A DNA stretch of 58,765 bases from a phage. The translations under genes were made by a program, and so were the position numbers. The notes under the pieces were generated by a model that was given only the letters and a program-made list of their open reading frames with translations, was not told the DNA's origin and searched no databases. Shown here one piece after another: positions 5,623-58,765 of this stretch (position 1 is the first letter of the stretch; every line of letters begins with the position of its first letter). The stretch is taken from sequence record PX530564.1, one strand, 5' to 3'.

Positions 5623-5625
5623 GAT

Positions 5626-5650: not shown

Positions 5651-5655
5651 TTATC

Positions 5656-29625: not shown

Positions 29626-29643
29626 CTTACGGGAGTAATGTAT

Positions 29644-29906: not shown

Positions 29907-29931
29907 AATTCTTGTAACTAAAGGCAACTGT

Positions 29932-30386
29932 ATGCTTAATTGCTCCAAAACGTGTATAGCATGTGGTGAGATGAAACCACTGAATATGTACTCGAAAAAT
30001 GCAGCATCGCGAGATGGTCACATCGGTACGTGTAAGAAATGCAAGGCAAAGCAACAAAGGGAACGAAGAGCCAAGGCAAAGGCTTCTGGTGCGCCAACTG
30101 AGAAGGCAATCAAGGATGCCAAGCGTAGACGAAACAATCACCTGAAAATTAGTTACGGTATCGACGAATCAGTGTACAAAAAGATGTACGAAGAACAACA
30201 CGGCGTCTGCGCCATATGTAAACAACCTGAAAGCATTGAGGGTAGGCGACTATGTGTTGACCATTCGCACATGACAGGAGACGTAAGGGTCTTCTGTGCT
30301 CAAACTGCAACAGAGGAATAGGCCTTCTTAAAGACTCACCTGAACTATTACGCAACGCTTTCTATTATTTAACTGGTAAACTCTAA
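29932..30386 (+). pseudogene. Endonuclease VII-type (His-Cys box) homing-endonuclease-like gene with apparent 1-nt frameshift
   Basis: ORF 29932..30321 carries CAICKQP..LCVDHSHMTGDVR; the motif continues in the +1 frame (GLLCSNCNRGIGLLKDSPELLRNAFYYL) to TAA 30384-30386; break is in the G-run at 30287-30289. Confidence 0.7.
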
Positions 30387-30399
30387 AGGACACACTGTA

Positions 30400-31479: not shown

Positions 31480-31549
31480 TAGTCTTATCTTACAGGTCAT
31501 CTGCGGGTGGCCTGAAATAGATACGATTACTGACCGAAAGAGGTACAAA

Positions 31550-34201: not shown

Positions 34202-34209
34202 CGTCAAAT

Positions 34210-34232
34210 TAATACGACTCACTATAGAGGGG
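34210..34232 (+). promoter_or_regulatory. T7 RNAP promoter phi1.1A-like
   Basis: TAATACGACTCACTATAGAGGGA immediately after gene 1. Confidence 0.85.
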
Positions 34233-34233
34233 A

Positions 34234-34275
34234 CAAACTCAAGGTCATTCGCAAGAGTGGCCTTTATGATTGACC
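34234..34275 (+). promoter_or_regulatory. RNase III processing hairpin (R1.1-like)
   Basis: CAAACTCAAGGTCATTCGCAAGAGTGGCCTTTATGATTGACC. Confidence 0.45.
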
Positions 34276-34298
34276 TTCTTCCGGTTAATACGACTCAC
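34276..34298 (+). promoter_or_regulatory. T7 RNAP promoter phi1.1B-like
   Basis: TAATACGACTCACTATAGGAGAA. Confidence 0.85.
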
Positions 34299-34386
34299 TA
34301 TAGGAGAACCTTAAGGTTTAACTTTAAGACCCTTAAGTGTTAATTAAAGATTTAAATTAAAGAATTACTAAGAGAGGACTTTAAGT
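34299..34386 (+). other. AT-rich tract downstream of phi1.1A/B; candidate primary origin of replication
   Basis: About 75% A+T (..TTTAACTTTAAGACCCTTAAGTGTTAATTAAAGATTTAAATTAAAGAATTAC..) at the position of the T7 primary origin. Confidence 0.4.
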
Positions 34387-34515
34387 ATGCGTAACTTCGA
34401 AAAGATGACCAAACGTTCTACCCGTAATGCTCATGACTTCGAGGCAACTAAAGGTCGCAAGTTGAATAAGACTAAGCGTGACCGTTCCCATAAGCGTAGC
34501 TGGGAGGGTCAGTAA
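34387..34515 (+). CDS. 1.1: gene 1.1 basic protein (42 aa)
   Basis: ATG 34387, MRNFEKMTKRSTRNAHDFEATKGRKLNKTKRDRSHKRSWEGQ. Confidence 0.7.
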   Translation: MRNFEKMTKRSTRNAHDFEATKGRKLNKTKRDRSHKRSWEGQ

Positions 34516-34516
34516 G

Positions 34517-34774
34517 ATGGGACGTTTATACAGTGGGAACTTGAATGACTTCAAGGATGCTTGCAACAGGCTCTACCAGTTAGACTTTGCTGTTATTTGT
34601 GATGAATGGCATGATGCTTACAAACGCCTTGCGTGTATACGTCTACGCGTAGAGGACAGGGCTGGAAATCTGATTGATACCAATACGTTCTGTCACCACG
34701 ATGAAGACGTCTTGTACAATACGTGTACTGACTGGCTGAACCGTATGTACGACCAGTTGAAGGACTGGAAGTAA
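34517..34774 (+). CDS. 1.2: gene 1.2 protein (85 aa; dGTPase inhibitor in T7)
   Basis: ATG 34517 inside ORF 34478..34774; MGRLYSGNLNDFKDACNRLYQLDFAVICDEWHDAYKR.. Confidence 0.85.
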   Translation: MGRLYSGNLNDFKDACNRLYQLDFAVICDEWHDAYKRLACIRLRVEDRAGNLIDTNTFCHHDEDVLYNTCTDWLNRMYDQLKDWK

Positions 34775-34794
34775 TACGACTCAGTATAGGGACA
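34772..34794 (+). promoter_or_regulatory. T7 RNAP promoter phi1.3-like
   Basis: TAATACGACTCAGTATAGGGACA overlapping 1.2 stop. Confidence 0.75.
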
Positions 34795-34830
34795 ATGCTT
34801 AAGGTCGCTCATTGAGTGGCCTTAGTCATT
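34795..34830 (+). promoter_or_regulatory. RNase III processing hairpin (R1.3-like)
   Basis: AATGCTTAAGGTCGCTCATTGAGTGGCCTTAGTCATT. Confidence 0.4.
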
Positions 34831-34852
34831 TAACCAATAGGAGATAAACATT

Positions 34853-35878
34853 ATGATGAACATTAAGACCAACCCATTCAAAGCCGTGTCTTTCATAGAG
34901 TCTGCCATTAAGAAAGCTCTGGATAACGCTGGGTATCTTATTGCTGACATTAAGTACGATGGTGTGCGTGGTAACATCTGCGTAGACAATACCGCTAACT
35001 GCTGCTGGCTCTCTCGTGTATCCAAACCGATTCCGGCACTGTCTTACCTTAATGGGTTCGACGCACGTTGGCAGCGTCTACTAAAGGATGACCGTTGCTT
35101 CTACCCTGATGGCTTCATGCTGGATTGCGAACTTATGGTCAAGGGAGTGGACTTCAACACTGGCTCCGGCCTTCTGCGGACCAAGTGGCTCAACAAGAAG
35201 AACATGCAGTTCGATATTGGAGGTCCGTATGAATCGTGGGACGTGAGCCTGAAGGGACTTCCTTTCGGTATTGACCCGAACTTACTAACAGTTAAACTCT
35301 ACGCTATCCTTCCGTACCACATTGTGGAATCTGGGGAAGACTGTGATGTCATGACGTTGCTCATGCAGGAACACGTTAAGAACATGCTGCCTCTGCTACA
35401 GGAATACTTTCCTGAAATCGAATGGCAAGCGGCTGAGTCTTACGAGGTTTACGACATGGTAGAACTACAGCAACTGTACGAGAAGAAGCGTGAAGAAGGG
35501 CATGAGGGTCTCATTGTGAAAGACCCGATGTGCATCTACAAGCGCGGTAAGAAGTCCGGCTGGTGGAAACTTAAGCCTCTTGAGGAAGCTGACGGTATCA
35601 TTCAAGGTGTAAACTGGGGAACCGAAGGGCTTGCTAACGAAGGTAAGGTAATTGGATTCAAGGTGCTTCTTGAGACTGGTCGTCTTGTGGATGCCAATAA
35701 CATCTCTCGCGCCTTAATGGATGAATTTACAGCTAACGTTAAAGAACATGGCGAGGACTATTATAATGGCTGGGCTTGCCAGATTGGATTTATGGAGGAA
35801 ACACCAGATGGCTCATTGCGTCACCCGTCCTTCACCTGCTTCCGAGGAACTGAGGACAATCCGAAAGAGAAAGTATAA
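34853..35878 (+). CDS. 1.3: gene 1.3 ATP-dependent DNA ligase (341 aa)
   Basis: ORF track; adenylation-site motif ..IADIKYDGVRG.. and C-terminus ..ETPDGSLRHPSFTCFRGTEDNPKEKV. Confidence 0.92.
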   Translation: MMNIKTNPFKAVSFIESAIKKALDNAGYLIADIKYDGVRGNICVDNTANCCWLSRVSKPIPALSYLNGFDARWQRLLKDDRCFYPDGFMLDCELMVKGVDFNTGSGLLRTKWLNKKNMQFDIGGPYESWDVSLKGLPFGIDPNLLTVKLYAILPYHIVESGEDCDVMTLLMQEHVKNMLPLLQEYFPEIEWQAAESYEVYDMVELQQLYEKKREEGHEGLIVKDPMCIYKRGKKSGWWKLKPLEEADGIIQGVNWGTEGLANEGKVIGFKVLLETGRLVDANNISRALMDEFTANVKEHGEDYYNGWACQIGFMEETPDGSLRHPSFTCFRGTEDNPKEKV

Positions 35879-36278
35879 GTATAACCCTGCGGCTCCTTCG
35901 GGAGTCATTTCTGCCTCTGGTAAACCCATAGGGTACAAGCGGAAAGATGGGTATTGGGTTCTTTCTTATGGAGGAAAGCAGTTACTTGCACACAGGGTGG
36001 TCTGGATGCTTAACTTCGGTGCAATACCCGATGGAATGGTGATAGACCACATTAACAGAAACCCTAGCGACAACCGCATAGAGAATCTTCGAGTAGTAAC
36101 TCAATCAGCTAACCTAAGGAATGTAGGCGTCCGGTCTCACTGTAGGAGTGGAGAGAAGTTTATCTCCCTTGATGTGAGAACCGGACGTTTTTCCGTTCGT
36201 ATCAGGAGAAAATCCTATGGAACATATGGTACTCTCGAAGAGGCTATAGCTGTGCGCGATGCTAATACGACTCACTAA
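35808..36278 (+). CDS. HNH homing-endonuclease-like protein (about 156 aa) between ligase and gene 1.5
   Basis: ATG 35808 with GGAGGA RBS, inside ORF 35721..36278; motif ..GMVIDHINRNPSDNRIENLRVVTQSAN..; overlaps ligase 3' end by 71 nt; stop is the TAA of the phi1.5 promoter. Confidence 0.7.
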   Translation: MAHCVTRPSPASEELRTIRKRKYKYNPAAPSGVISASGKPIGYKRKDGYWVLSYGGKQLLAHRVVWMLNFGAIPDGMVIDHINRNPSDNRIENLRVVTQSANLRNVGVRSHCRSGEKFISLDVRTGRFSVRIRRKSYGTYGTLEEAIAVRDANTTH

Positions 36279-36285
36279 AGGAGGT
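36263..36285 (+). promoter_or_regulatory. T7 RNAP promoter phi1.5-like (block B copy)
   Basis: TAATACGACTCACTAAAGGAGGT. Confidence 0.85.
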
Positions 36286-36292
36286 ACACATC

Positions 36293-36382
36293 ATGATGTA
36301 CTTAATGCCATTACTCATTGTCATCATAGGATGCCTTGCGCTCCACTGTAGCGATGACGATATGCCAGATGGTCATGCTTAA
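36293..36382 (+). CDS. 1.5: gene 1.5 small membrane protein (29 aa), block B copy
   Basis: ATG 36293, MMYLMPLLIVIIGCLALHCSDDDMPDGHA, TAA 36380-36382. Confidence 0.65.
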   Translation: MMYLMPLLIVIIGCLALHCSDDDMPDGHA

Positions 36383-36402
36383 TACGACTCACTAAAGGAG
36401 AC
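36380..36402 (+). promoter_or_regulatory. T7 RNAP promoter phi1.6-like (block B copy)
   Basis: TAATACGACTCACTAAAGGAGAC. Confidence 0.85.
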
Positions 36403-36407
36403 ACTAT

Positions 36408-36668
36408 ATGTTTCGACTTCATTACAACAAAAGCATTAAGAATTTCACGGTTCGCCGTGCTGACCGTTCAATCGTATGTGCGAGCGAGCGCCGAGCTAAG
36501 TTACCTCTTATTGGTAACACAGTTCCTTTGGCACCGAGCGTCCACATCATTATCACCCGTGGTGACTTTGAGAAAGCAGTAGATAAGAAACGTCCGGTTC
36601 TTAGCGTGGCAGTGACCCGCTTCCCGTTCGTCCGTCTGTTACTCAAACGTATCAAGGAGGTGTTCTAA
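36408..36668 (+). CDS. 1.6: gene 1.6 protein (86 aa), block B copy
   Basis: ORF track; 5 aa differences from the copy at 231..491. Confidence 0.85.
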
Positions 36669-36995
36669 TGACTATTAACCATAAAGAATATTGTCGCTCC
36701 GTACTTAGCTTTGGGTCGTGCGATTGTGGTGCCACTACGAACCACGTGTCCAACAAACAACAAGACGTAGACGGTGTTCGTACTCCGAGCCATTACATGC
36801 TGTTTGACGACATTGAGGCTATTGAAGTGATTGCCCGTTCGATGACCAGTGAGCAGTTCAAAGGGTACTGCTTCGGGAACGTACTTAAATATCGCCTACG
36901 TGCTGGTAAGAAATCCGAACTGGCTTACTTAGAGAAGGACATGGCGAAAGCTGAGTTCTACGGTGAACTGTACGAGAAACATAAGGATAAGTGCT

Positions 36996-37009
<14 letters not shown>
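36668..37009 (+). CDS. 1.7: gene 1.7 protein, short allele (113 aa)
   Basis: ORF track; conserved C-terminal half, N-terminal Cys-rich region largely absent relative to the 213-aa block A allele. Confidence 0.8.
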
Positions 37010-37329
<320 letters not shown>

Positions 37330-37332
<3 letters not shown>

Positions 37333-37352
37333 TACGACTCACTATTGGGGGA
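37330..37352 (+). promoter_or_regulatory. T7 RNAP promoter phi2.5-like (block B copy)
   Basis: TAATACGACTCACTATTGGGGGA. Confidence 0.75.
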
Positions 37353-37398
37353 AGACTCCCTCTGAGAAACTAAACGAAACCTAAAGGAGATTAACATT

Positions 37399-38097
37399 AT
37401 GGCTAAGAAGATTTTCACCTCTGCGCTGGGTACTGCTGAACCTTACGCTTACATCTCTAAGCCGGACTACGGCAACGAAGAGCGTGGCTTTGGGAACCCT
37501 CGCGGTGTCTACAAAGTTGACCTGACTATTCCCAACAAAGACCCGCGCTGCCAACGTATGGTCGATGAAATCGTGAAGTGCCACGAAGAGGCTTATGCTG
37601 CTGCCGTTGAGGAATACGAAGCGAACCCGCCTTCTGTAGCTCGTGGTAAGAAACCACTGAAACCGTATGAAGGCGACATGCCGTTCTTCGATAACGGTGA
37701 CGGTACGACTACCTTTAAGTTCAAATGCTACGCGTCTTTCCAAGACAAGAAGACCAAAGAGACCAAGCACATTAATCTGGTTGTGGTTGACTCCAAAGGT
37801 AAGAAGATGGAAGACGTTCCGATTATCGGTGGTGGCTCTAAACTGAAAGTAAAATACTCGCTGGTTCCGTACAAGTGGAACACCGCTGTAGGCGCGAGCG
37901 TTAAGCTACAACTGGAATCCGTAATGCTGGTCGAACTGGCTACCTTTGGTGGCGGTGAAGATGATTGGGCTGACGAAGTTGAAGAGAACGGCTATGTTGC
38001 CTCTGGTTCTGCCAAAGCGAGCAAACCACGCGACGAAGAAAGCTGGGACGAAGACGACGAAGAGTCCGAGGAAGTAGACGAAGACGGAGACTTCTAA
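37399..38097 (+). CDS. 2.5: gene 2.5 ssDNA-binding protein (232 aa), block B copy
   Basis: ORF track. Confidence 0.9.
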   Translation: MAKKIFTSALGTAEPYAYISKPDYGNEERGFGNPRGVYKVDLTIPNKDPRCQRMVDEIVKCHEEAYAAAVEEYEANPPSVARGKKPLKPYEGDMPFFDNGDGTTTFKFKCYASFQDKKTKETKHINLVVVDSKGKKMEDVPIIGGGSKLKVKYSLVPYKWNTAVGASVKLQLESVMLVELATFGGGEDDWADEVEENGYVASGSAKASKPRDEESWDEDDEESEEVDEDGDF

Positions 38098-38553
38098 GTG
38101 GCTGGCGCATACGCTGCGCGTGGTATCAGAAAGGTCGGGACATTCCGTTCCGGCCTAGAAGATAAGGTCTCTAAGCAGCTAGAGGGTAAGGGTATTAAGT
38201 TCGATTATGAACTGTGGAAAATCCCTTACGTTGTCCCTGCGAGCAACCATGTGTATACTCCAGACTTCCTGCTGCCTAACGGAATCTTTATTGAAACCAA
38301 AGGTTTATGGGAGAGTGACGACCGAAAGAAACACTTATTGATTCGCGAACAGTTTCCTGAACTGGACATCCGTCTGGTGTTCTCAAGCTCACGCACCAAG
38401 CTATACAAAGGGTCTCCGACCAGTTACGGCGAATGGTGTGAGAAGCACGGTATTCTGTTTGCTGACAAATTAATTCCTGTAGAATGGCTCAAAGAACCCA
38501 AAAAGGAGGTGCCATTTGACAAGCTGAAACAATCGAAGGGAGGAAAGAAATAA
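38098..38553 (+). CDS. 3: gene 3 endonuclease I, block B copy
   Basis: ORF track, GTG start. Confidence 0.9.
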   Translation: MAGAYAARGIRKVGTFRSGLEDKVSKQLEGKGIKFDYELWKIPYVVPASNHVYTPDFLLPNGIFIETKGLWESDDRKKHLLIREQFPELDIRLVFSSSRTKLYKGSPTSYGEWCEKHGILFADKLIPVEWLKEPKKEVPFDKLKQSKGGKK

Positions 38554-39008
38554 TGGCTCGTGTACAGTTTAAACAACGTGAATCCACTGACGCAATCTTT
38601 GTTCACTGCTCGGCTACCAAGCCAAGCCAGAATGTAGGTGTCCGTGAGATTCGTCAGTGGCATAAAGAGCAAGGTTGGCTTGATGTCGGGTATCACTTTA
38701 TCATCAAGCGTGATGGTACTGTAGATGAAGGCCGAGATGAGATGGCTGTAGGTTCTCACGCTAAGGGTTACAACCACAACTCTATTGGTGTCTGCCTTGT
38801 AGGTGGTATCGACGATAAAGGCAAGTTCGACGCTAACTTTACGCCAGCCCAAATGCAATCCCTTCGCTCACTGCTTGTCACACTGCTGGCTAAGTATGAA
38901 GGCGCTGTACTGAAAGCCCATCACGATGTCGCACCCAAGGCTTGCCCTTCGTTCGACCTTAAGCGTTGGTGGGAGAAGAACGAACTGGTCACTTCTGACC
39001 GTGGATAA
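38553..39008 (+). CDS. 3.5: gene 3.5 lysozyme / amidase, block B copy
   Basis: ORF track. Confidence 0.92.
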   Translation: MARVQFKQRESTDAIFVHCSATKPSQNVGVREIRQWHKEQGWLDVGYHFIIKRDGTVDEGRDEMAVGSHAKGYNHNSIGVCLVGGIDDKGKFDANFTPAQMQSLRSLLVTLLAKYEGAVLKAHHDVAPKACPSFDLKRWWEKNELVTSDRG

Positions 39009-39009
39009 T

Positions 39010-39034
39010 TAATTGAACTCACTAAAGGGAGACC
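39010..39034 (+). promoter_or_regulatory. T7 RNAP promoter phi3.8-like (block B copy)
   Basis: TAATTGAACTCACTAAAGGGAGACC. Confidence 0.75.
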
Positions 39035-39064
39035 ACAACGGTTTCCCTTTGTTCGCGTTGTTGA

Positions 39065-40537
<1,473 letters not shown>

Positions 40538-48720: not shown

Positions 48721-49278
48721 CCTGAGATTGCCCGTATGCCAGCGTCACTGCGTGAGTCTGCGCGTAAGATTTATGACTCAGTTAAATATCGCTCAGGGAA
48801 CGAAAGTATGGCTATGGAGCAGATGACCAAGTTCCTTAAGGAATCTACCTACACGTTCACTGGTGACGATGTTGGTGGTGATACCGTTGGTGTAATTCCG
48901 AAGAACATGATGCAAGTCAACTCTGACCCGAAATCATGGGAGCAAGGTCGCGATATTCTGGAGGAAGCACGTAAGGGAATCATTGCGAGCAACCCTTGGA
49001 TAACCAACAAGCAACTGACCATGTATTCTCAAGGTGACTCCATTTACCTCATGGACACCACTGGTCAAGTCCGCGTCCGTTATGATAAAGAGTTACTATC
49101 GAAGGTATGGAGTGAGAACCAGAAGAAACTCGAAGAGAAGGCTCGCGAGAAGGCTCTGACTGATGTTAACAAGCGAGCACCTATCGTTGCCGCTAAGAAG
49201 GCCCGTGAAGCTGCTGCTAAACGAGTCCGAGAGAAACGTAAACAGACTCCGAAGTTCATCTATGGACGTAAGGAGTAA
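48721..49278 (+). pseudogene. 15: 3' portion of gene 15 (last ~185 codons) without native start
   Basis: In gene-15 frame ..PEIARMPASLRESARKIYDSVKYRSGNE.. matching the C-terminus of 19545..21788; ORF track 48736..49278. Confidence 0.85.
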
Positions 49279-49304
49279 CTAAAGGCTACATAAGGAGGCC
49301 CTAA

Positions 49305-52300
49305 ATGGATAAGTACGATAAGAACGTACCAAGTGATTATGATGGTCTGTTCCAAAAGGCGGCTGATGCCAACGGGGTCTCGTATGACCTTTTACGTAAA
49401 GTCGCTTGGACGGAATCACGCTTTGTACCTACAGCAAAATCTAAGACTGGACCATTAGGCATGATGCAGTTCACCAAGGCAACCGCTAAGGCACTTGGTC
49501 TGCGAGTTACCGATGGTCCAGATGATGACCGACTAAACCCTGAGTTGGCTATCAATGCTGCCGCCAAGCACCTTGCAGGTCTGGTAGGGAAGTTTGATGG
49601 CGATGAACTCAAAGCTGCCCTTGCATACAACCAAGGCGAGGGACGCTTGGGTAATCCTCAACTTGAGGCGTACTCTAAGGGAGACTTCGCGTCCATCTCT
49701 GAGGAAGGACGGAACTACATGCGTAACCTTCTGGATGTTGCTAAGTCACCTATGGCTGGACAGTTAGAAACTTTTGGAGGTATCACCCCAAAGGGTAAAG
49801 GCATTCCGGCTGACGTTGGACTAGCTGGAATAGACCATAGTCAGAAAGTAACACAGGAACTTCCTGAGTCCACAAGTTTTGACGTTAAAGGTATCGAACA
49901 GGAGGCTCCGGCGAAACCATTCGCCAAGGACTTTTGGGAGACCCACGGAGAAACACTTGATGAGTACAACAGTCGTTCAACCTTCTTCGGATTCAAAAAT
50001 GCTGCCGAAGCTGAACTCTCCAACTCAGTCGCTGGGATGGCTTTCCGTGCTGGTCGCCTCGATAATGGTTTTGATGTGTTTAAAGACACCATTACGCCGA
50101 CTCGCTGGAACTCTCACATCTGGACTCCAGAAGAGTTAGAGAAGATTCGAACTGAGGTTAAGAACCCTGCGTATATCAACGTGGTAACTGGTGGTTCTCC
50201 TGAGAATCTTGACGACCTCATTAAGCTGGCTAACGAGAACTTTGAGAATGACTCACTCGCTGCCGAAGCTGGCCTCGGTGCTAAACTGAGTGCTGGCATT
50301 ATTGGCGCTGGTGTGGACCCTCTTAGTTATGTTCCCATGGTTGGTGTAACTGGTAAGGGCTTTAAGTTAATCAATAAGGCTCTTGTGGTTGGTGCAGAAA
50401 GTGCTGCGCTGAACGTTGCATCCGAAGGTCTCCGCACATCCGTAGCTGGTGGCGATGCAGATTATGCTGGTGCTGCCTTAGGTGGCTTTGTGTTTGGCGC
50501 TGGTATGTCTGCAATCAGTGATGCTGTAGCTGCTGGTCTGAAACGTAGTAAACCAGAAGCTGAGTTCGACAATGAGTTCATTGGTCCCATGATGCGGATG
50601 GAAGCCCGTGAGACAGCGCGTAACGCCAACTCTGCGGACCTCTCTCGGATGAACACTGAGAACATGAAGTTTGAAGGTGAATACAAAGGCGTTCCATATG
50701 AGGAACTTCCGACCGAAAAGGGTGCTGTGGTTCTCCATGACGGCTCCATACTTAGTGCGAGCAACCCAATCAACCCCAAGACTCTCAAAGAGTTCTCCGA
50801 GGTTGACCCTGAGAAAGCGGCACGAGGAATCAAACTAGCAGGGTTCACTGAGATAGGGTTAAAGACCTTAGGCTCAGACGACGCTGATATTCGACGGGTA
50901 GCTATTGACCTAGTGCGGTCTCCTACCGGAATGCAATCAGGTTCCTCAGGGAAGTATGGTTCAACAGCTTCGGACATTTTCGAGAAACTTCGTGGCACTG
51001 ACCAGCGTACTTACAACGACTTGTATAAGGCGATGTCTGACGCGATGAAAGACCCTGAGTTCTCCACTGGCGGCGCTAAGATGTCTCGCGAAGAAGCTCG
51101 TTACACTATCGAGCGTCGAGTGTCCTTGGCTATTGAGAACCCTGAGCTACAGAAGGCTTTAACTCCTAACGAGCGAATCGTAATGGACATCGTTAAGCGA
51201 CATTATGACACCAAGCGTGAACTTATGGAGAACCCTGCGGTCTTTGGTAACACGAAGGCTGTGAGTATCTTTCCGGAGAGTAGACACAAGGGAACATATG
51301 TTCCACATGTGTACGACAAGTACGCTAAGGCACTCAAAATTCAACAATATGGTGCTGAGGGCTTACAGGAAGGTATCGCTCGGTCATGGATGTGTAGCTA
51401 CGATTTGAGGCCTGCGGTAAAGGCCCGTATTGACGAAGCACTTAAAGAGATGCACGGTGTAGAGGAAGTCACACATGATATGGTGTATAAGTACGCTATG
51501 GATAAAGCATACGGTATCTCTCACTCAGACAGGTTCACTAATAGCTCCATCATTGAGGAGAACATTGAGGGTCTTGTTGGTATTGAGAATAACTCATTCC
51601 TTGAAGCACGAAACCTCTTTGACTCCGACTTAGCAATCACCATGCCAGATGGTCAGCAATTCTCTGTGAACGATTTGAGGGACTTTAGTATGTTCCGTAT
51701 CATGCCAGCGTATGACCGCCGTATCAACGGTGACATAGCCATCATGGGGTCTACCGGTAAAACCACTAAGGAACTTAAGGATGAGATTTTGGCTCTCAAA
51801 GCGAAAGCTGAGGGTGACGGTAAGAAGACTGGCGAGGTTCATGCTCTAATGGATACCGTTAAGATTCTTACTGGTCGTGCTCGACGCAATCAGGACACTG
51901 TGTGGGAAACCTCACTGCGTGCCATTAATGACCTAGGGTTCTTCGCCAAGAACGCCTATATGGGTGCTCAGAACCTTACGGAGATTGCTGGGATGATTGC
52001 CACGGGTAACGTGCGTGCTCTTGGTCACGGTATCCCAATTCTACGTGATACACTCTACAAGTCTAAACCAGTTTCCGCTAAGGAACTTAAGGAACTCCAT
52101 GCGTCTCTGTTCGGGAAGGAGGTGGACCAGTTGATTAGACCTCAACGTGCTGACATAGTGCAGCGTCTAAGGGAAGCAACTGACACAGGGCCTGTTGTGG
52201 CGAACATCGTAGGAACCTTAAAGTATTCCACACAGGAACTAGCTGCTCGCTCTCCATGGACTAAGCTGCTTAATGGAACCACTAACTACCTTCTTGATGC

Positions 52301-53111
52301 TGCGCGTCAAGGTATGCTTGGGGACGTTATTAGTTCTACCCTAACAGGTAAGACTACCCGCTGGGAGAAAGAAGGATTCCTTCGTGGTGCCTCCGTAACT
52401 CCTGAGCAGATGGCTGGAATCAAGGCTCTCATCAAGGAACATATGGTACGTGGTGAGGACGGGAAGTTTACCGTTAAGGATAAGCACGCGTTCTCTATGG
52501 ACCCTCGTGCTATGGACTTATGGAGACTGGCTGACAAGGTAGCTGATGAGGCGATGCTGCGTCCACACAAGGTGTCCTTACAGGATTCCCATGCGTTCGG
52601 AGCATTAGGTAAGATGGTCATGCAGTTTAAGTCTTTCACTATCAAGTCCCTTAACTCTAAGTTCCTGCGAACCTTCTACGATGGGTACAAGAACAACCGA
52701 GCGATTGACGCTGCGCTGACTGGTATCATATCTATGGGTCTCGCTGGTGGCTACTACGCTATGGCTGCACACGTCAAAGCATATGGAATGCCTAAGGAGA
52801 AACGTAAAGAGTACTTGGAGCGAGCACTGGACCCAACCATGATTGCCCACGCTTCGTTGTCTCGTAGTTCTCAATTGGGTGCTACTTTGGCTATGGCTGA
52901 CCTAGTTGGTGGCCTGTTCGGGGTTGAGTCCTCAAAGATGGCCCGCTCTACGATTCTGCCTAAAGACACCATGAGGGAGCGTGACCCTAATAAGCCTTAT
53001 ACCTCGTGGGAGGTAATGGGTAATATGGGTTCCAACATTCTTGAACAGATGCCATCGGCTGGATTTGTGGCTAACGTTGGGGCTTCCCTACTTAATCTGC
53101 TGGCGTGGTGA
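49305..53111 (+). CDS. 16: gene 16 internal core protein D, C-terminally truncated by a 1-nt deletion (1268 aa; full length would be about 1318)
   Basis: ORF track; collinear with 21815..25771 until about 53090, where a missing base shifts the frame (..LLNLLAW stop); remaining conserved codons 53100..53260 are out of frame. Confidence 0.85.
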   Translation: MDKYDKNVPSDYDGLFQKAADANGVSYDLLRKVAWTESRFVPTAKSKTGPLGMMQFTKATAKALGLRVTDGPDDDRLNPELAINAAAKHLAGLVGKFDGDELKAALAYNQGEGRLGNPQLEAYSKGDFASISEEGRNYMRNLLDVAKSPMAGQLETFGGITPKGKGIPADVGLAGIDHSQKVTQELPESTSFDVKGIEQEAPAKPFAKDFWETHGETLDEYNSRSTFFGFKNAAEAELSNSVAGMAFRAGRLDNGFDVFKDTITPTRWNSHIWTPEELEKIRTEVKNPAYINVVTGGSPENLDDLIKLANENFENDSLAAEAGLGAKLSAGIIGAGVDPLSYVPMVGVTGKGFKLINKALVVGAESAALNVASEGLRTSVAGGDADYAGAALGGFVFGAGMSAISDAVAAGLKRSKPEAEFDNEFIGPMMRMEARETARNANSADLSRMNTENMKFEGEYKGVPYEELPTEKGAVVLHDGSILSASNPINPKTLKEFSEVDPEKAARGIKLAGFTEIGLKTLGSDDADIRRVAIDLVRSPTGMQSGSSGKYGSTASDIFEKLRGTDQRTYNDLYKAMSDAMKDPEFSTGGAKMSREEARYTIERRVSLAIENPELQKALTPNERIVMDIVKRHYDTKRELMENPAVFGNTKAVSIFPESRHKGTYVPHVYDKYAKALKIQQYGAEGLQEGIARSWMCSYDLRPAVKARIDEALKEMHGVEEVTHDMVYKYAMDKAYGISHSDRFTNSSIIEENIEGLVGIENNSFLEARNLFDSDLAITMPDGQQFSVNDLRDFSMFRIMPAYDRRINGDIAIMGSTGKTTKELKDEILALKAKAEGDGKKTGEVHALMDTVKILTGRARRNQDTVWETSLRAINDLGFFAKNAYMGAQNLTEIAGMIATGNVRALGHGIPILRDTLYKSKPVSAKELKELHASLFGKEVDQLIRPQRADIVQRLREATDTGPVVANIVGTLKYSTQELAARSPWTKLLNGTTNYLLDAARQGMLGDVISSTLTGKTTRWEKEGFLRGASVTPEQMAGIKALIKEHMVRGEDGKFTVKDKHAFSMDPRAMDLWRLADKVADEAMLRPHKVSLQDSHAFGALGKMVMQFKSFTIKSLNSKFLRTFYDGYKNNRAIDAALTGIISMGLAGGYYAMAAHVKAYGMPKEKRKEYLERALDPTMIAHASLSRSSQLGATLAMADLVGGLFGVESSKMARSTILPKDTMRERDPNKPYTSWEVMGNMGSNILEQMPSAGFVANVGASLLNLLAW

Positions 53112-53257
53112 ATGCTCCCAACAAAGCCACTGAGCAGGACTTCATGACTGGCTTGATGAACTCTACCAAGGAGTTAGTACCTAACGACCCTCTTACTCAA
53201 CAGCTTGTGTTGAAGATTTATGAGGCGAATGGTGTTAACTTGAGGGAACGTCGGAAA

Positions 53258-53280
53258 TAATACGACTCACTATAGGGAGA
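53258..53280 (+). promoter_or_regulatory. T7 RNAP class III promoter phi17-like (block E copy)
   Basis: TAATACGACTCACTATAGGGAGA. Confidence 0.9.
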
Positions 53281-53332
53281 GGCGAAAGAATCTTCTCCCT
53301 GTAGTCTCTTAGATTTACTTTAAGGAGGTCAA

Positions 53333-55205
53333 ATGGCTAACGTAATTAAAACCGTTTTGACTTACCAGTTAGATGGCTCCACTCGTGATTTTAATATCCC
53401 GTTTGAGTATCTAGCCCGTAAGTTCGTAGTGGTAACTCTTATTGGTGTAGACCGCAAGGTCCTTACGATTAATACAGACTACCGTTTTGCTACTCGCACT
53501 ACTATCTCACTAACCAAGGCTTGGGGTCCAGCGGATGGATATACTACAATAGAGCTACGTCGAGTAACCTCCACGACCGACCGCTTGGTTGACTTTACGG
53601 ATGGCTCAATCCTCCGTGCGTATGACCTTAACGTCGCTCAGATTCAAACGATGCACGTAGCGGAAGAGGCCCGTGACTTAACTGCGGATACTATCGGTGT
53701 CAATAATGATGGTAACTTGGATGCTCGTGGTCGTCGAATTGTGAACCTAGCGAACGCTGTAGATGACCGTGACGCTGTTCCGTTTGGTCAACTTAAGGCT
53801 ATGAACCAGAACTCATGGCAGGCGCGTAATGAGGCCTTACAGTTCCGTAATGAGGCTGAGACTTTCAGAAATCAAGCGGAGGGCTTTAAGACCGAGTCTG
53901 GCACTAACGCTGCTAATACGAAGCAGTGGCGTGATGAGACCAAAGGTTTCCGAGACGAAGCTGAGCAGTTTAAGAATACTGCTGGTCAATATTCTACATC
54001 CGCTGGGAACTCTGCGACCGCAGCACACCAATCTGAGGTAAACGCTGAGAACTCCGCAACAGCCTCCGCTAACTCTGCCCAGTCAGCAGAACAGCAAGCA
54101 GACCGCGCTAAGGTGGAAGCAGACAAGTTGGGTAACTGGAATGCACTTGCAGGGGCAATTGATAGTGTTGACGGGAACAATGTCATGTTTAAAGGCGACA
54201 TTTAGAACACCTGCAAATATCGTAGGTGGTGGCTTAATCTCCAACGGTTCTGGTCATTTTGAGAAAGGCGTGGCTGTTAAGGGTGAATTAGATGTTGTAG
54301 GGGATGTTTCGGCGCATAAGGATGTGTGGGTAGATGGTGTAGTTGTAGCCAATGGTGGGATACAGCAACATTCAAATCCTAATACCCTTAATGAGGTGTG
54401 GAGGGTGTTTATTAAGGGGGTCCCACTCCATATTGGAAACCGACAAGGTCTTCATCTTGGTTGGAACGAGACCAGTAATGGCGAGTCGTGTTTTGTTACT
54501 AACAAAGGTGCAGGTGGTGGTGGTTTTGTTTTCCGCACGGTAAACTTTGAGAACACTGCTGAGATTGGTCGCGTTACATTCACTGGTAACGGTGGAGTAC
54601 GCGCCTTCGATTTACAAGCAATTAATGGTGCTCGTATTGAGGCTGGGAATAATATAGTTGGTGCGAGCATTTTCTCAGGAATGGGCGCCTGCCAGTTCAA
54701 TACCGAAGGTAACTTGCTGGGAGGTCTATGGAACAGAGTTGGAGGTGACCTATACAACTACCTGTGGAACAAGAGTCACTTTGCTAAGCCACCTGCTGGG
54801 GTTCAATTGTTTACAGGCCGTGGTGGGGACTACCTTGAGGGCCTTGTTGATACTACAGCTGTTGGGTTCCGCTGGTTCAATTCTGACAGAAGGCTTAAAG
54901 AAAACATAAAGGTTGTACGTTCCGCTGATGATATGCTTAAGATTATCCGCTCATACATCCCGGTTTCCTATAAGTATAAGGACTCTGAGTATGTTGATAA
55001 GCGTGGCAGAACGGTAAGCGTTACCGGTAAGAACTCTCGTGCTGGTTTCATTACTCAGGATTTGATTCGAATCTGGCCAGAGGCGGTGGACGTGCTATCC
55101 GATGGTATGCAATCCCCAGACCCTAACCAAATCATCGGTGGACTCATGCTTCTTGTCAAGAATCTTGATGAACGCGTACAGGAGTTGGAGAAAAATAACG
55201 TTTAA
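53333..55205 (+). pseudogene. 17: gene 17 tail fibre split by a 1-nt frameshift near 54200; C-terminal module carries an intramolecular-chaperone (endosialidase-chaperone-like) autocleavage domain
   Basis: ORFs 53333..54205 and 54141..55205; removing one T of the TTT at 54201-54203 joins ..NVMFKGDI to RTPANIVGGG..; C-terminal ..WFNSDRRLKENIKVV.. motif. Confidence 0.8.
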
Positions 55206-55222
55206 GGATAACACTGGATTAG

Positions 55223-55236
55223 GACCAAGGATGGTA
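55223..55236 (+). promoter_or_regulatory. stem-loop upstream of holin gene
   Basis: ACCA-AGGA-TGGT-type hairpin, related to 27926..27943. Confidence 0.3.
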
Positions 55237-55253
55237 TTTAATAAGGAGGATAC

Positions 55254-55457
55254 ATGCTGTCTTTGGATTTCAATAATGAGTTAGTCAAGGCTGCGCCTAT
55301 TGTTGGCACTGGTGTTGCCGATGGTGCTGCGAGGCTTTTCTTCGGGCTGAGTCTTAATGAGTGGTTCTATATTGCTGCTATCGCCTACACAGTGGTTCAG
55401 ATTGGTGCCAAGGTAGTCGATAAGATGATTGACTGGAAGAAAGCCAATAAGGAGTGA
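55254..55457 (+). CDS. 17.5: gene 17.5 holin (67 aa)
   Basis: ORF track; MLSLDFNNELVKAAPIVGTGVADGAARLFFGLSLNEWFYIAAIAYTVVQIGAKVVDKMIDWKKANKE, one transmembrane segment. Confidence 0.9.
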   Translation: MLSLDFNNELVKAAPIVGTGVADGAARLFFGLSLNEWFYIAAIAYTVVQIGAKVVDKMIDWKKANKE

Positions 55458-55462
55458 TATGT

Positions 55463-55732
55463 ATGGAAAAAGATAAGAGCCTCATTACGTTCTTAGAGAT
55501 GTTGGACACTGCGATGGCTCAGCGTATGCTTGCGGACCTTTCGGACCCTGAGCGGCGCTCTCCTCAACTCTATAACGCCATCAACAAACTGTTAGACCGC
55601 CACAAGTTCCAGATTGGTAAGTTGCAGCCGGATGTTCACATCTTAGGTGGCCTTGCTGGTGCTCTTGAAGAGTACAAAGAGAAAGTAGGTGATAACGGTC
55701 TTATGGATGACGATATTTACACATTACAGTGA
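55463..55732 (+). CDS. 18: gene 18 terminase small subunit (89 aa)
   Basis: ATG 55463 (MEKDKSLITFLEMLDTAMAQRMLADLSD..) inside ORF 55454..55732. Confidence 0.88.
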   Translation: MEKDKSLITFLEMLDTAMAQRMLADLSDPERRSPQLYNAINKLLDRHKFQIGKLQPDVHILGGLAGALEEYKEKVGDNGLMDDDIYTLQ

Positions 55733-55774
55733 TATACTCAAGGCCACTACATATAGTGGTCTTTATGGATGTCA
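55729..55774 (+). promoter_or_regulatory. RNase III processing hairpin (R18.5-like)
   Basis: GTGATATACTCAAGGCCACTACATATAGTGGTCTTTATGGATGTC. Confidence 0.4.
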
Positions 55775-55826
55775 TTGTCTACACGAGATGCTCCTACGTG
55801 AAATCTGAAAGTTAACGGGAGGCATT

Positions 55827-56270
55827 ATGCTAGAATTTTTACGTAAGCTAATCCCTTGGGTTCTCGCTGGGATGCTATTCGGATTAGGATGGCATCTAGG
55901 GTCAGACTCAATGGACTCTAAATGGAAACAGGAGGTACACGATGAGTACGTTAAGAGAGTTGAGGCTACGGCGAGCACTCAAAGAGCAATCAATGAAATA
56001 TCGGCTAAGTATCAAGAAGACCTTGCCGCGCTGGAAGGGAGCACTGATAGGATTATTTCTGATTTGCGTAGCGACAATAAGCGGCTGCGCGTCAGAGTCA
56101 AAACTACCGGAACCTCCGATGGTAAGTGTGGATTCGAGCCTGATGGTCGAGCCGAACTTGACGACCGAGATGCTAAACGTATTCTCGCAGTGACCCAGAA
56201 GGGTGACGCATGGATTCGTGCGTTACAGGATACTATTCGTGAACTGCAACGTAAGCAGGAAATCAAGTAA
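55827..56270 (+). CDS. 18.5: gene 18.5 inner-membrane spanin (Rz-like, 147 aa)
   Basis: ORF track; N-terminal transmembrane segment then coiled-coil region. Confidence 0.85.
   Translation: MLEFLRKLIPWVLAGMLFGLGWHLGSDSMDSKWKQEVHDEYVKRVEATASTQRAINEISAKYQEDLAALEGSTDRIISDLRSDNKRLRVRVKTTGTSDGKCGFEPDGRAELDDRDAKRILAVTQKGDAWIRALQDTIRELQRKQEIK
55942..56193 (+). CDS. 18.7: gene 18.7 outer-membrane lipoprotein spanin (Rz1-like, 83 aa) embedded in the +1 frame of 18.5
   Basis: ORF track; signal peptide plus lipobox ..ATISGC; embedded architecture as in T7. Confidence 0.75.
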   Translation: MSTLRELRLRRALKEQSMKYRLSIKKTLPRWKGALIGLFLICVATISGCASESKLPEPPMVSVDSSLMVEPNLTTEMLNVFSQ

Positions 56271-56279
56271 GGAGGCAAT

Positions 56280-58040
56280 GTGTCTACTCAATCCAATCGT
56301 AATGCGCTCGTAGTGGCGCAACTGAAAGGAGACTTCGTGGCGTTCCTGTTCGTCTTATGGAAGGCGTTAAACCTTCCGGTACCCACCAAGTGTCAGATTG
56401 ATATGGCTAAGGTACTGGCGAATGGAGACAACAAGAAGTTCATCCTACAGGCTTTCCGTGGTATCGGTAAGTCGTTCATCACGTGTGCGTTCGTTGTGTG
56501 GTCCTTATGGAGAGACCCTCAGTTGAAGATACTTATCGTATCAGCCTCTAAGGAACGTGCAGACGCTAACTCCATCTTTATTAAGAACATCATTGACCTG
56601 CTCCCGTTCCTAGCTGAGCTAAAGCCAAGACCCGGACAGCGTGATTCTGTAATCAGCTTTGATGTAGGTCCGGCTAACCCTGACCACTCTCCTAGTGTGA
56701 AATCAGTAGGTATCACTGGTCAGTTAACTGGTAGCCGTGCTGACATTATCATTGCGGATGACGTTGAGATTCCGTCTAACAGTGCAACTATGGGTGCCCG
56801 TGAGAAGCTATGGACTCTCGTTCAGGAGTTCGCTGCGTTACTTAAACCGCTGCCTTCCTCTCGCGTTATCTACCTTGGTACACCTCAGACAGAGATGACT
56901 CTCTATAAGGAACTTGAGGATAACCGTGGGTACACAACCATTATCTGGCCTGCCCTGTACCCAAGGACGCGTGAAGAGAACCTCTATTACTCACAGCGTC
57001 TTGCTCCTATGTTACGCGCTGAGTATGATGAGAACCCTGAGGCCCTCGCTGGGACTCCTACAGACCCTGTTCGCTTTGACCGTGATGACCTCCGTGAGCG
57101 TGAGTTGGAATACGGCAAGGCTGGCTTCACACTACAGTTCATGCTTAACCCGAACCTGAGTGATGCCGAGAAGTACCCTCTGAGGCTCCGTGACGCTATC
57201 GTAGCGGCCTTAGACTTAGAGAAGGCCCCAATGCATTACCAGTGGCTTCCGAACCGTCAGAACATCATTGAGGACCTTCCTAACGTTGGCCTTAAGGGTG
57301 ATGACCTTCATACGTATCACGATTGCTCCAACAACTCTGGTCAGTATCAACAGAAGATTCTGGTCATTGACCCTAGTGGTCGCGGTAAGGACGAAACAGG
57401 TTACGCTGTGCTGTACACCCTGAACGGTTATATCTACCTTATGGAAGCTGGAGGTTTCCGTGATGGTTACTCCGATAAGACCCTTGAGTTGCTCGCTAAG
57501 AAGGCCAAGCAGTGGGGAGTCCAGACGGTTGTCTATGAGAGTAACTTCGGTGACGGTATGTTTGGTAAGGTGTTCAGTCCTATCCTTCTTAAACACCACA
57601 ACTGTGCAATGGAAGAGATTCGCGCTCGTGGTATGAAGGAGATGCGTATTTGTGATACCCTTGAGCCAGTCATGCAGACTCACCGCCTTGTCATTCGTGA
57701 TGAGGTCATTCGGGCCGACTACCAGTCCGCTCGTGACGTAGACGGTAAGCATGACGTTAAGTACTCACTGTTCTACCAGATGACCCGTATCACCCGTGAG
57801 AAAGGCGCTCTGGCTCATGATGACCGATTGGATGCCCTTGCGTTAGGCATTGAGTATCTCCGTGAGTCCATGCAGTTGGATTCCATTAAGGTCGAGGGTG
57901 AAGTACTTGCTGACTTCCTTGAGGAACACATGATGCGTCCTACAGTAGCTGCCACGCACATCATTGAGATGTCTGTGGGAGGAGTTGATGTGTACTCTGA
58001 GGACGATGAGGGTTACGGTACGTCTTTCATTGAGTGGTGA
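56280..58040 (+). CDS. 19: gene 19 terminase large subunit (586 aa)
   Basis: ORF track, GTG start after AGGAGG RBS; (M)[53 protein letters not shown].. Confidence 0.95.
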
Positions 58041-58121
58041 TTTATGCATTGAGACTGCATAGGGATGCACTATAGACCACGGATGGTCAGTTCCTTAAGT
58101 TACTGAAAAGACATGATAAAT

Positions 58122-58144
58122 TAATACGACTCACTATAGGGAGA
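58122..58144 (+). promoter_or_regulatory. T7 RNAP promoter phiOR-like
   Basis: TAATACGACTCACTATAGGGAGA after gene 19. Confidence 0.9.
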
Positions 58145-58297
58145 GGAGGGACGAAAGGTTACTATATAGATACTGAATGAATACTTATAGAGTGCATAAA
58201 GTATGCATAGTAGTGTACCTAAAGTGACCTCTAAGAATGGTGATTATATTGTATTAATATCACCTTAACTTAAAGACCAACATAAAGGAGGAGACTC

Positions 58298-58447
58298 ATG
58301 TTCCGCTTATTGTTGAACCTACTGCGGCATAGAGTCACCTACCGCTTTCTTATGGTACTTTGTGCTGCCCTTGGTTACGCAGTTCTTAATGGAGACCTCA
58401 GTTCATTGGAGTCTACCGTTTGCTCTTTACTTACTTGTGTTGATTAA
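58298..58447 (+). CDS. 19.5: gene 19.5 small membrane protein (49 aa)
   Basis: ATG 58298 with AAGGAGG RBS; MFRLLLNLLRHRVTYRFLMVLCAALGYAVLNGDLSSLESTVCSLLTCVD. Confidence 0.7.
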   Translation: MFRLLLNLLRHRVTYRFLMVLCAALGYAVLNGDLSSLESTVCSLLTCVD

Positions 58448-58489
58448 GGTCTTCATAACAGACTGATGGCTCACCGAGGGATTCAGCGG

Positions 58490-58686
58490 TATGATTGCAT
58501 CACACCACTTCATCCCTATAGAGTCAAGTCCTAAAGTATATCCATAAAGAGCCTCTAATGGTCTATCCTAAGGTCTATACCTAAAGATAGGCCATCCTAT
58601 CAGTGTCACCTAAAGAGAGTCCTAGAGAGGGCCTAGGGAGTTCCTAGAGGGTCCTTTAAAATATACCATAAAAATCTGAGTGACTA
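58490..58686 (+). repeat. right-end short-repeat region (CCTAAAG-type heptamers and GAGGGYCCT-type motifs) before the terminal repeat
   Basis: Several CCTAAAG / CTAAAGA copies and CCTAGAGAGGGCCTAGGGAGTTCCTAGAGGGTCCT. Confidence 0.45.
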
Positions 58687-58765
58687 TCTCACAGTGTACG
58701 GACCCAAAGTTCCCCCCATACGGGGTACCTAAAGCCCACCTAAAGTCAACCGAAGGTCCTTAGGG
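58687..58765 (+). repeat. right terminal repeat, first ~79 bp (runs off window end)
   Basis: TCTCACAGTGTACGGACCCAAAGTTCCCCCCATACGGGGTACCTAAAGCCCACC..; differs by substitutions and indels from the repeat copy at 28001. Confidence 0.7.

What the first reader, a model, noticed from the sequence alone, without database searches (positions are those of the whole stretch)
54141..55205. Block E tail fibre has an intramolecular-chaperone autocleavage domain and is split by a T-run indel
The C-terminal ~100 residues contain the SDRRLKENI-type motif of intramolecular chaperone domains that are cleaved off after trimer assembly (as in endosialidase tailspikes). The gene is read in two frames; the shift is a single extra T at 54201-54203. 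This is a second, different receptor-binding solution from block A.
Basis: partly seen in the sequence, partly recalled or inferred. Interest (0 to 1): 0.55.

Follow-up and report, generated by a model that had tools for sequence, protein, structure and literature searches.

The report
Frameshifted T7-type fibre with self-cleaving chaperone
This is the ordinary tail-fibre gene of a published T7-like coliphage (64795_ec1), carrying a well-known self-cleaving C-terminal folding domain, and it is split in two by one extra T that is most likely an error in the deposited sequence.

Summary
Both parts of the observation are real. Window 48721-58765 is 100% identical to the right end of Escherichia phage 64795_ec1 (NC_031114). 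Gene 17 is read in two frames there. ORF1 (53333-54205, 290 aa) holds the T7 tail-attachment domain and shaft. ORF2 (+1 frame, to 55205) has a Peptidase_S74 hit (E 1.6e-12, 48 bits against a cut-off of 22). Four intact relatives show exactly one extra base, in the T-run at 54201-54203. Removing one T gives a 623-aa fibre that is colinear with them.

The Ser517/Lys522 pair aligns with the catalytic dyad of solved intramolecular-chaperone domains. That predicts cleavage at Asn516|Ser517, giving a 55.7 kDa fibre and a 12.2 kDa chaperone.

This fibre type is already described. phiYeO3-12 gp17 (63% identical) autoprocesses in vitro, and the Bas102 fibre (84% identical) is published with this domain.

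The split is found only in this one record, and ten relatives have one continuous frame. The part downstream of the shift is under strong purifying selection. The same record has a second 1-base frameshift in essential gene 16, 1.1 kb upstream. The most likely cause is a sequence error (about 0.8). A real recent mutation is less likely, and programmed recoding is unlikely. Interest is low.

The parts
53333..54202 (+). Gene 17 tail fibre, N-terminal part (residues 1-290): T7-type tail-attachment domain (1-162) and coiled-coil shaft. As written in the window it ends at the stop TAG 54203-54205.
   Evidence: Pfam PF03906 E 7e-74. Residues 1-293 of the repaired protein align with T7 gp17 1-293 in PDB 7boz, E 6e-170. 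Matches phrog_9502 positions 1-306 of 647.
54201..54203 (+). T-run holding one extra base compared with all intact relatives. This creates the frameshift and the TAG stop.
   Evidence: Alignment A1 with four relatives shows a single extra column. Removing one T restores a 623-aa ORF. Ten relatives have one continuous frame.
54204..54881 (+). Gene 17, distal part (repaired residues 291-516): short beta-strand repeats, a beta-rich domain and a stalk. This is the presumed receptor-binding region and the fastest-evolving part of the gene.
   Evidence: Matches phrog_9502 positions 309-645 together with the next part. 79-84% aa identity to ESh1, NC-A, Bas102 and Yep_9 over the whole C-terminal 333 aa. 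dN/dS 0.19-0.33. AF2 secondary structure.
54882..55205 (+). C-terminal intramolecular chaperone / Peptidase_S74 domain (repaired residues 517-623, 12.2 kDa) plus stop codon. Ser517 codon at 54882-54884 and Lys522 codon at 54897-54899. Predicted self-cleavage at Asn516|Ser517.
   Evidence: PF13884 E 1.6e-12. Ser, Asp and Lys are invariant in 20 homologues. The profile hits PDB 8jov, 7dc3, 6f45, 3gud and 8hqz with the dyad aligned. Foldseek top hit is the MyRF ICA domain. dN/dS 0.03-0.07.
53096..53097 (+). Second frame-breaking indel in the same record: one base is missing in gene 16 (internal virion protein D). The last 50 codons are split off as a separate 'ORF39' (53105-53260).
   Evidence: Alignment A2 with block A and three relatives. 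tblastn of block A gp16 against the record switches frame at record position 33566.

Best explanation
Window 53333-55205 is one gene, gene 17 of Escherichia phage 64795_ec1, which encodes the homotrimeric tail fibre of a T7-like podovirus. Residues 1-162 attach the fibre to the tail. Residues up to about 290 form the T7-type coiled-coil shaft. Residues 291-516 are a beta-structured distal region that carries host specificity. In close relatives this specificity is for LPS O-antigen; for this phage that is inferred. Residues 517-623 are an intramolecular chaperone of the Peptidase_S74 family. By analogy with endoNF, T5 pb1, GA-1 gp12 and MyRF, three chaperone domains associate through their C-terminal helices and nucleate trimer folding of the upstream beta-stalk. 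Once the trimer is formed, the Ser517-Lys522 dyad cuts the chain between Asn516 and Ser517. This releases a 12.2 kDa fragment and leaves a 55.7 kDa mature fibre. The extra T at 54201-54203 that splits the gene is most likely an error in the deposited sequence, and the living phage most likely carries the intact 623-codon gene. Shown here: domain identities, dyad conservation, colinearity with intact relatives, and uniqueness of the shift. Inferred: the cleavage itself, the receptor class, and that the indel is an artefact.
For: Block E is 100% identical to NC_031114 positions 29191-39235. That record annotates two adjacent 'tail fiber protein' CDS. The two ORFs tile a single fibre family profile, phrog_9502, at positions 1-306 and 309-645. 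There is one extra base compared with four relatives, and the repaired protein is colinear with them. All intact relatives carry Phage_T7_tail and Peptidase_S74 in one chain. Six further relatives show one continuous frame. S74 is matched at 48 bits. Ser, Asp and Lys are invariant and align with solved chaperone domains. The 3gud chain begins exactly at the equivalent Ser, and 7dc3 is the S587A mutant of MyRF. Cleavage falls N-terminal to the Ser, and the dyad S587/K592 corresponds to endoNF S911/K916 (PMC8326128). phiYeO3-12 gp17 is 63% identical over 330 aa and processes itself from 69 kDa to about 58 plus about 11 kDa (PMC7582827). The Bas102 fibre, 84% identical, is published as having a C-terminal IMC and as O16 O-antigen dependent (PMC11990801). 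Arguments for an artefact: the phage was deposited as an E. coli isolate and needs fibres to infect. dN/dS downstream of the shift is 0.03-0.33, with no further stops in 333 codons. The truncated protein exists in only this one record. A second 1-base frameshift breaks gene 16, 1.1 kb upstream.
Against: No raw reads or independent sequence of this phage were available, so the error was not demonstrated directly. I found no publication giving the sequencing platform. A run of three T is short for a classical homopolymer error, and the gene 16 deletion is not in a homopolymer. No independent copy of this exact junction exists in IMG/VR or the metagenome collection. Cleavage and receptor were not tested for this protein. 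The AF2 monomer model is only moderate (pLDDT 71), and confident mainly in the chaperone domain.
Confidence: 0.8

Rival explanations
1. The extra T is a genuine, very recent mutation in the sequenced clone or in the majority of the sequenced lysate. Gene 17 would then be a fresh pseudogene. The virions would lack functional fibres, or the stock would be a mixture carried by intact genomes.
For: The base is present in the deposited consensus. Fibre genes are frequent targets of mutation during propagation. No read-level data contradict it.
Against: A T7-like phage with a fibre lacking its distal half should not propagate, so such a variant should not dominate a plaque-purified lysate. Two independent frameshifts in essential virion genes 16 and 17 in one viable phage are less plausible than two consensus errors. 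The downstream 333 codons show no decay.
Confidence: 0.13
2. The shift is decoded by a programmed +1 ribosomal frameshift at AUU UAG A, similar to prfB. The P-site tRNA-Ile would slip onto UUU at a slowly decoded stop, helped by the upstream AAGG. This would yield both a 31.8 kDa stub and the full-length fibre.
For: The site has an in-frame stop directly after a codon that overlaps UUU in the +1 frame. An AAGG lies 4 nt upstream. The required shift direction is +1.
Against: The arrangement is not conserved. All ten relatives examined have one uninterrupted frame, and Bas102 reads ATT CGA at the site. By inference from codon-anticodon rules, tRNA-Ile re-pairing on UUU mismatches at the first position. 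The AAGG encodes the conserved Lys-Gly and is a weak Shine-Dalgarno match at non-optimal spacing. There is no stable downstream RNA structure (z -0.65). A virion needs 18 fibre chains, which demands high frameshift efficiency.
Confidence: 0.03
3. The two ORFs are separate functional proteins: a 290-aa tail-bound adaptor, and a separately translated 341-aa receptor-binding protein that docks onto it, as the RefSeq annotation implies.
For: RefSeq annotates two CDS, the second starting at ATG 54180. Two-component adaptor and tailspike systems do exist in other podoviruses, from my own knowledge of SP6 and K1-5 type phages.
Against: ORF2 has no docking domain. Its first homologous residue continues the shaft of intact single-chain relatives. 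The ATG at 54180 is an out-of-frame coincidence inside the conserved codons N-N-V-M-F-K. It lacks a strong Shine-Dalgarno sequence, unlike the AAGGAGG ahead of the holin gene. No relative has this split.
Confidence: 0.02

Closest known systems
Tail fibre of Escherichia phage MeretOppenheim (Bas102), annotated as CDS Bas102_0052 (called Gp58 in the paper), and fibres of ESh1, NC-A and vB_Yep_9
   Same: Same gene position. 82-89% nucleotide identity over the whole gene. 79-84% aa identity in the C-terminal 333 residues. Same architecture: T7 N-terminal domain, shaft, distal region, C-terminal IMC. The Bas102 fibre is published as carrying a C-terminal IMC and as O16 O-antigen dependent (PMC11990801).
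   Different: Those genes are uninterrupted ORFs of 622-625 codons, whereas the window has one extra T. The distal region differs at about 15-20% of residues, so receptor specificity may differ.
gp17 of Yersinia phage phiYeO3-12 (T3-like; S74 domain at residues 539-645)
   Same: 63% aa identity over 330 C-terminal residues. The S74 domain is the same length, 107 aa. Autoprocessing into about 58 and about 11 kDa fragments is shown experimentally (PMC7582827).
   Different: It has a T3-type N-terminal part and a longer shaft (645 aa). Its host is Y. enterocolitica O:3.
C-terminal intramolecular chaperone domains of K1F endosialidase endoNF (3gw6), T5 L-shaped fibre pb1 (4uw8/8hqz), GA-1 neck appendage gp12 (3gud), S16 gp37 (6f45) and the MyRF ICA domain (7dc3)
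   Same: Same Pfam family. The Ser-x4-Lys dyad is aligned, the domain sits at the C-terminus, and it ends in a long helix.
   Different: Only about 20-35% identity. The upstream passenger here is a slender fibre tip and not an endosialidase beta-propeller. Foldseek is significant only for MyRF (E 2e-4), because a monomer model of an intertwined trimer superposes poorly.
T7 gp17
   Same: Residues 1-293 are nearly identical, at 89-90% nucleotide identity over the first 851 nt. The gene sits in the same place, between gene 16 and the holin gene.
   Different: The T7 C-terminal pyramid and tip domains are replaced from residue ~293 on, and T7 has no S74 domain. The frameshift lies 18-20 nt past this module junction.

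Membership tests
Peptidase_S74 / C-terminal intramolecular chaperone domain | Profile match above the curated threshold | tested here: met
   PF13884 at 48.0 bits against a cut-off of 22, E 1.6e-12, profile positions 1-57 of 58.
Peptidase_S74 / C-terminal intramolecular chaperone domain | Catalytic Ser and Lys spaced Ser-x4-Lys, equivalent to endoNF S911/K916 | tested here: met
   S517 and K522 lie in SDRRLK. Ser, Asp and Lys are invariant in 20 homologues. They align with SDERHK at the start of chain 3gud and with A587/K592 of the MyRF S587A mutant 7dc3. Dyad equivalence is taken from PMC8326128.
Peptidase_S74 / C-terminal intramolecular chaperone domain | Located at the extreme C-terminus of a trimeric fibre or spike, and ending in a long helix that forms the trimer coiled coil | tested here: met
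   The domain is the last 107 residues. AF2 predicts a helix at residues 307-332 of the 333-aa model with pLDDT 85-93. Foldseek top hit is the MyRF ICA domain, probability 1.00.
Peptidase_S74 / C-terminal intramolecular chaperone domain | Autocatalytic release of the domain after trimer assembly | not testable with these tools
   Supported only by homology: phiYeO3-12 gp17 (63% identical) yields ~58 and ~11 kDa fragments (PMC7582827).
T7-type tail fibre (gp17) | N-terminal Phage_T7_tail attachment domain, with the gene located between gene 16 and the holin gene | tested here: met
   PF03906 E 7e-74. Gene order is gp16, gp17, holin, gp18, Rz, gp19.
T7-type tail fibre (gp17) | One polypeptide joining the attachment domain to the receptor-binding end | tested here: not met
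   Not met in the sequence as given: there is a stop at 54203-54205 and the continuation is in the +1 frame. It is met after removing one T, and it is met in all ten relatives.
Programmed +1 ribosomal frameshift (prfB type) | Conservation of the shifted arrangement among relatives | tested here: not met
   No relative carries the shift.
Programmed +1 ribosomal frameshift (prfB type) | Shift-prone P-site codon followed by a stop, with a Shine-Dalgarno-like stimulator 3 nt upstream | tested here: inconclusive
   AUU UAG A has the stop. However, Ile-tRNA re-pairing on UUU is poor (inference), and the only SD-like element is AAGG at 4 nt. There is no downstream structure.

The most novel reading that the evidence does not exclude
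The extra T is real in the phage genome, and the fibre is made by +1 ribosomal frameshifting at AUU-UAG-A. The phage would then produce a fixed ratio of a 31.8 kDa tail-binding stub to full-length fibre. That would be a way to tune the number of fibres per virion.
Probability: 0.03. Interest if true: 0.6.

Novelty: already known. Interest (0 to 1): 0.08.

Why it matters
It matters little for biology. T7-like fibres with a self-cleaving C-terminal chaperone are documented in phiYeO3-12, Bas102 and K1F-type spikes. The practical value is curation. The RefSeq record NC_031114 very probably carries two single-base errors that split essential genes 16 and 17 into four annotated CDS. The resulting 290-aa, 341-aa and 50-aa 'proteins' have spread into protein databases. 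Anyone using this phage's fibre for host-range prediction or engineering should use the repaired 623-aa sequence. The window also shows, side by side, two fibre-folding strategies on the same T7 N-terminal scaffold: a chaperone in cis (block E) and one in trans (block A).

Tried and rejected
- A single-sequence phmmer search of the C-terminal 333 aa against PDB found nothing. A profile built from 20 homologues was needed.
- The block A fibre C-terminus has no PDB sequence match, and its downstream ORF has no Pfam match. Only a PHROG tail-fibre assembly family matched it.
- I looked for a paper describing how 64795_ec1 was sequenced. Five papers mention the phage, and the two I read do not give the platform.
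- I looked for independent copies of the junction, with or without the extra T. IMG/VR returned only the same genome, and the metagenome collection returned nothing.
- An exact-sequence look-up of the truncated 290-aa protein found only the one record.
- P0003, a 262-aa S74-only protein from Klebsiella phage KP13MC5-2, looked like a second split fibre. It is simply cut by the end of a permuted linear record.
- I tested for an RNA structure downstream of the shift site as a possible frameshift stimulator, and there is none (z -0.65).
- The AF2 monomer model gave only moderate confidence outside the chaperone domain. It produced no significant fold match for the distal receptor-binding region, so I assign no fold to residues 291-516.

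Full report
**Where the region comes from**

The 58.8-kb window is not one genome. It is a series of blocks from different T7-like phages. A blastn comparison shows that window 48721-58765 ("block E") is 100.000% identical, without gaps, to positions 29191-39235 of Escherichia phage 64795_ec1. That phage is KU927499 / NC_031114, genus Teseptimavirus, with an E. coli host from Italy. The earlier blocks are only 82-96% identical to that phage.

The finding therefore concerns a published, annotated record. In it, two adjacent CDS are both called "tail fiber protein": record 33803-34675 and 34650-35675, which are window 53333-54205 and 54180-55205.

**Checking the observation**

- The sequence reads GGC GAC ATT TAG A, with TTT at 54201-54203 and the stop at 54203-54205.
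- ORF1 (53333-54205, 290 aa) and ORF2 (54141-55205, 354 aa counted from its first ATG) are in different frames. ORF2 is +1 relative to ORF1.
- Megablast finds five other records, from four phages, that cover the whole 1873 nt at 82-89% identity: Bas102 MeretOppenheim, ESh1, NC-A (two records) and vB_Yep_9. In each, the region is one CDS of 622-625 codons.
- A multiple alignment across the junction shows exactly one extra column in the window, ATT[T]AGA. Bas102 has ATT-CGA there, which is Ile-Arg in both.
- Deleting one T gives a 623-aa protein that aligns end to end with the four relatives. The only gaps are single residues far from the junction.
- The two ORFs tile one PHROG fibre family: ORF1 matches phrog_9502 positions 1-306 and ORF2 matches positions 309-645 of 647.

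The one correction is that 54141 is not a biological start.

**The domains**

- *N-terminal part.* ORF1 matches Pfam Phage_T7_tail at E 7e-74. Residues 1-293 of the repaired protein align almost identically with T7 gp17 residues 1-293 in solved virion structures (7boz, E 6e-170). Nucleotide identity to T7 stops at nt 851 of the gene. Identity to the block A fibre stops at window 54164. The indel therefore lies about 20 nt past the classical junction between the conserved N-terminal module and the exchangeable C-terminal module.
- *C-terminal chaperone domain.* ORF2 matches Peptidase_S74 ("chaperone of endosialidase", PF13884) at residues 248-316, with 48 bits against a cut-off of 22.
- *Dyad conservation.* A whole-library HMMER search with the C-terminal 333 aa found 166 relatives. 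In an alignment of 20 of their C-terminal segments, Ser, Asp and Lys of S-D-x-x-x-K are invariant.
- *Solved structures.* A profile of that alignment hits five solved chains: a phage tail fibre (8jov, 3.7e-19), the MyRF ICA domain (7dc3, 5e-13), phage S16 gp37 (6f45), the GA-1 neck appendage chaperone (3gud) and T5 pb1 (8hqz). The 3gud chain begins exactly at the aligned Ser. The 7dc3 chain has Ala at that position, because it is the S587A mutant.
- *Cleavage position.* The MyRF structure paper states that cleavage is between P586 and S587, and that S587/K592 are equivalent to endoNF S911/K916, the Ser-Lys catalytic dyad (PMC8326128). For the window protein this predicts cleavage at Asn516|Ser517, giving a 55.7 kDa mature fibre and a 12.2 kDa released domain.
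- *Structure prediction.* An AF2 monomer model is moderate overall (pLDDT 71). It is confident in the chaperone domain (84-93), which ends in a helix of about 25 residues. Its best Foldseek match in the PDB is the MyRF ICA domain (E 2e-4). T5 pb1 and endoNF chaperone entries follow at non-significant E-values, as expected when a monomer model is compared with intertwined trimers.

**Already described in relatives**

tblastn finds this 333-aa module in 39 phage records, from Yersinia, Escherichia, Shigella, Enterobacter, Citrobacter, Klebsiella and Serratia phages.

- phiYeO3-12 gp17 is 63% identical over 330 residues. Its S74 domain (539-645) has been reported, and recombinant protein processes itself from 69 kDa to about 58 kDa plus an ~11 kDa fragment (PMC7582827).
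[quoted passage not shown] It also reports that Bas102 depends on O16 O-antigen (PMC11990801). Bas102 is 84% identical to the window protein in this module.

The fibre type, its chaperone and its general receptor class are therefore known. The specific receptor of 64795_ec1 is not known. The distal region evolves fastest, with dN/dS 0.19-0.33, against 0.08-0.11 for the N-terminal part and 0.03-0.07 for the chaperone.

**What the frameshift is**

Four readings were considered.

1. *Error in the deposited sequence (most likely, about 0.8).*
   - All ten relatives examined have one uninterrupted frame.
   - All intact homologues carry both Pfam domains in one chain.
   - The truncated 290-aa product occurs in only this one record among the indexed assemblies.
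   - The 333 codons after the shift are intact and under purifying selection.
   - The phage is recorded as an E. coli phage isolate, and a fibre without its distal half cannot work.
   - The same record has a second single-base frameshift 1.1 kb upstream. One base is missing at 53096/53097 in gene 16, which splits off the conserved last 50 codons as "ORF39".
2. *A genuine, very recent mutation (about 0.13).* I could not exclude this, because no reads or platform information were found. No independent copy of the junction exists in IMG/VR or the metagenome collection. A run of three T is short for a homopolymer error, and the gene 16 deletion is not in a homopolymer.
3. *A prfB-like programmed +1 frameshift at AUU UAG A (about 0.03).* The site has an in-frame stop and an upstream AAGG. 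However, the arrangement is not conserved, and tRNA re-pairing would be poor. The AAGG is simply the conserved Lys-Gly codons at a non-optimal spacing, and there is no downstream RNA structure.
4. *Two separate functional proteins, as annotated (about 0.02).* ORF2 has no attachment domain and no convincing ribosome-binding site. Its homologous sequence continues the shaft of single-chain relatives.

**The comparison with block A**

The block A fibre (25842-27518, 558 aa) has the same T7 N-terminal domain but no S74 domain. Its C-terminus has no PDB sequence match. It is followed by a 125-aa ORF (27528-27905) that matches phrog_136, "tail fiber assembly protein", at E 3.4e-5.

Block A most likely folds its fibre with a separate chaperone, whereas block E uses a built-in, self-removing one.

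**Verdict**

The feature is a known kind of tail fibre in a known phage. Its split is most probably a database error and not biology. The useful outcome is a correction to the record: use the repaired 623-aa gp17, and treat "ORF39" as the C-terminus of gp16. Interest is low.

Noticed in passing
window 53096-53097 (gene 16, 49305-53111, plus ORF 53105-53260): One base is missing in gene 16 compared with block A and three other phages. Internal virion protein D is cut to 1268 aa, and its conserved last 50 codons are annotated as a separate hypothetical protein (ORF39). This is a second frameshift in an essential gene of the same record.
   Followed up: yes
whole window; block boundaries near 28248, 40530/40736, 42770 and 48721: The window is a concatenation of blocks from different T7-like phages, not one genome. 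Positions 1 to ~26700 resemble the right two-thirds of a Serratia phage Pila / Bas103-like genome. The middle blocks resemble left-end and early regions. Only 48721-58765 is 64795_ec1. Large parts repeat each other at 86-94% identity.
   Followed up: partly
window 27528-27905 (+): A 125-aa ORF lies directly downstream of the block A fibre. It has no Pfam hit but matches PHROG 136 'tail fiber assembly protein' (E 3.4e-5). It is a likely separate chaperone for the S74-less block A fibre, whose C-terminal 272 aa have no PDB sequence match.
   Followed up: partly
L006 (NC_031114) about 13364-13467, outside the window: tblastn of the block A ORF 5518-6060 against the 64795_ec1 record changes frame at record position 13428, between annotated gp18 and gp19. 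This may be a third indel in the record, or just a different start or intergenic arrangement.
   Followed up: no
window 54204-54800 (repaired residues ~360-480): The conserved motif block QGLHLGWNE...GES.F.TNKG.G.GGF.FRTVN is shared with well over a hundred otherwise different fibre-like proteins in the representative library. Many of those lack the S74 domain, and the block has no Pfam family. It looks like an uncharacterised, widely shuffled fibre module.
   Followed up: no
L008 (OP617747, Klebsiella phage KP13MC5-2) 42-830: A 262-aa 'hypothetical protein' with only an S74 domain is the C-terminal part of a fibre gene. It is cut by the arbitrary start and end of a permuted linear record, and is not a separate gene.
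   Followed up: yes
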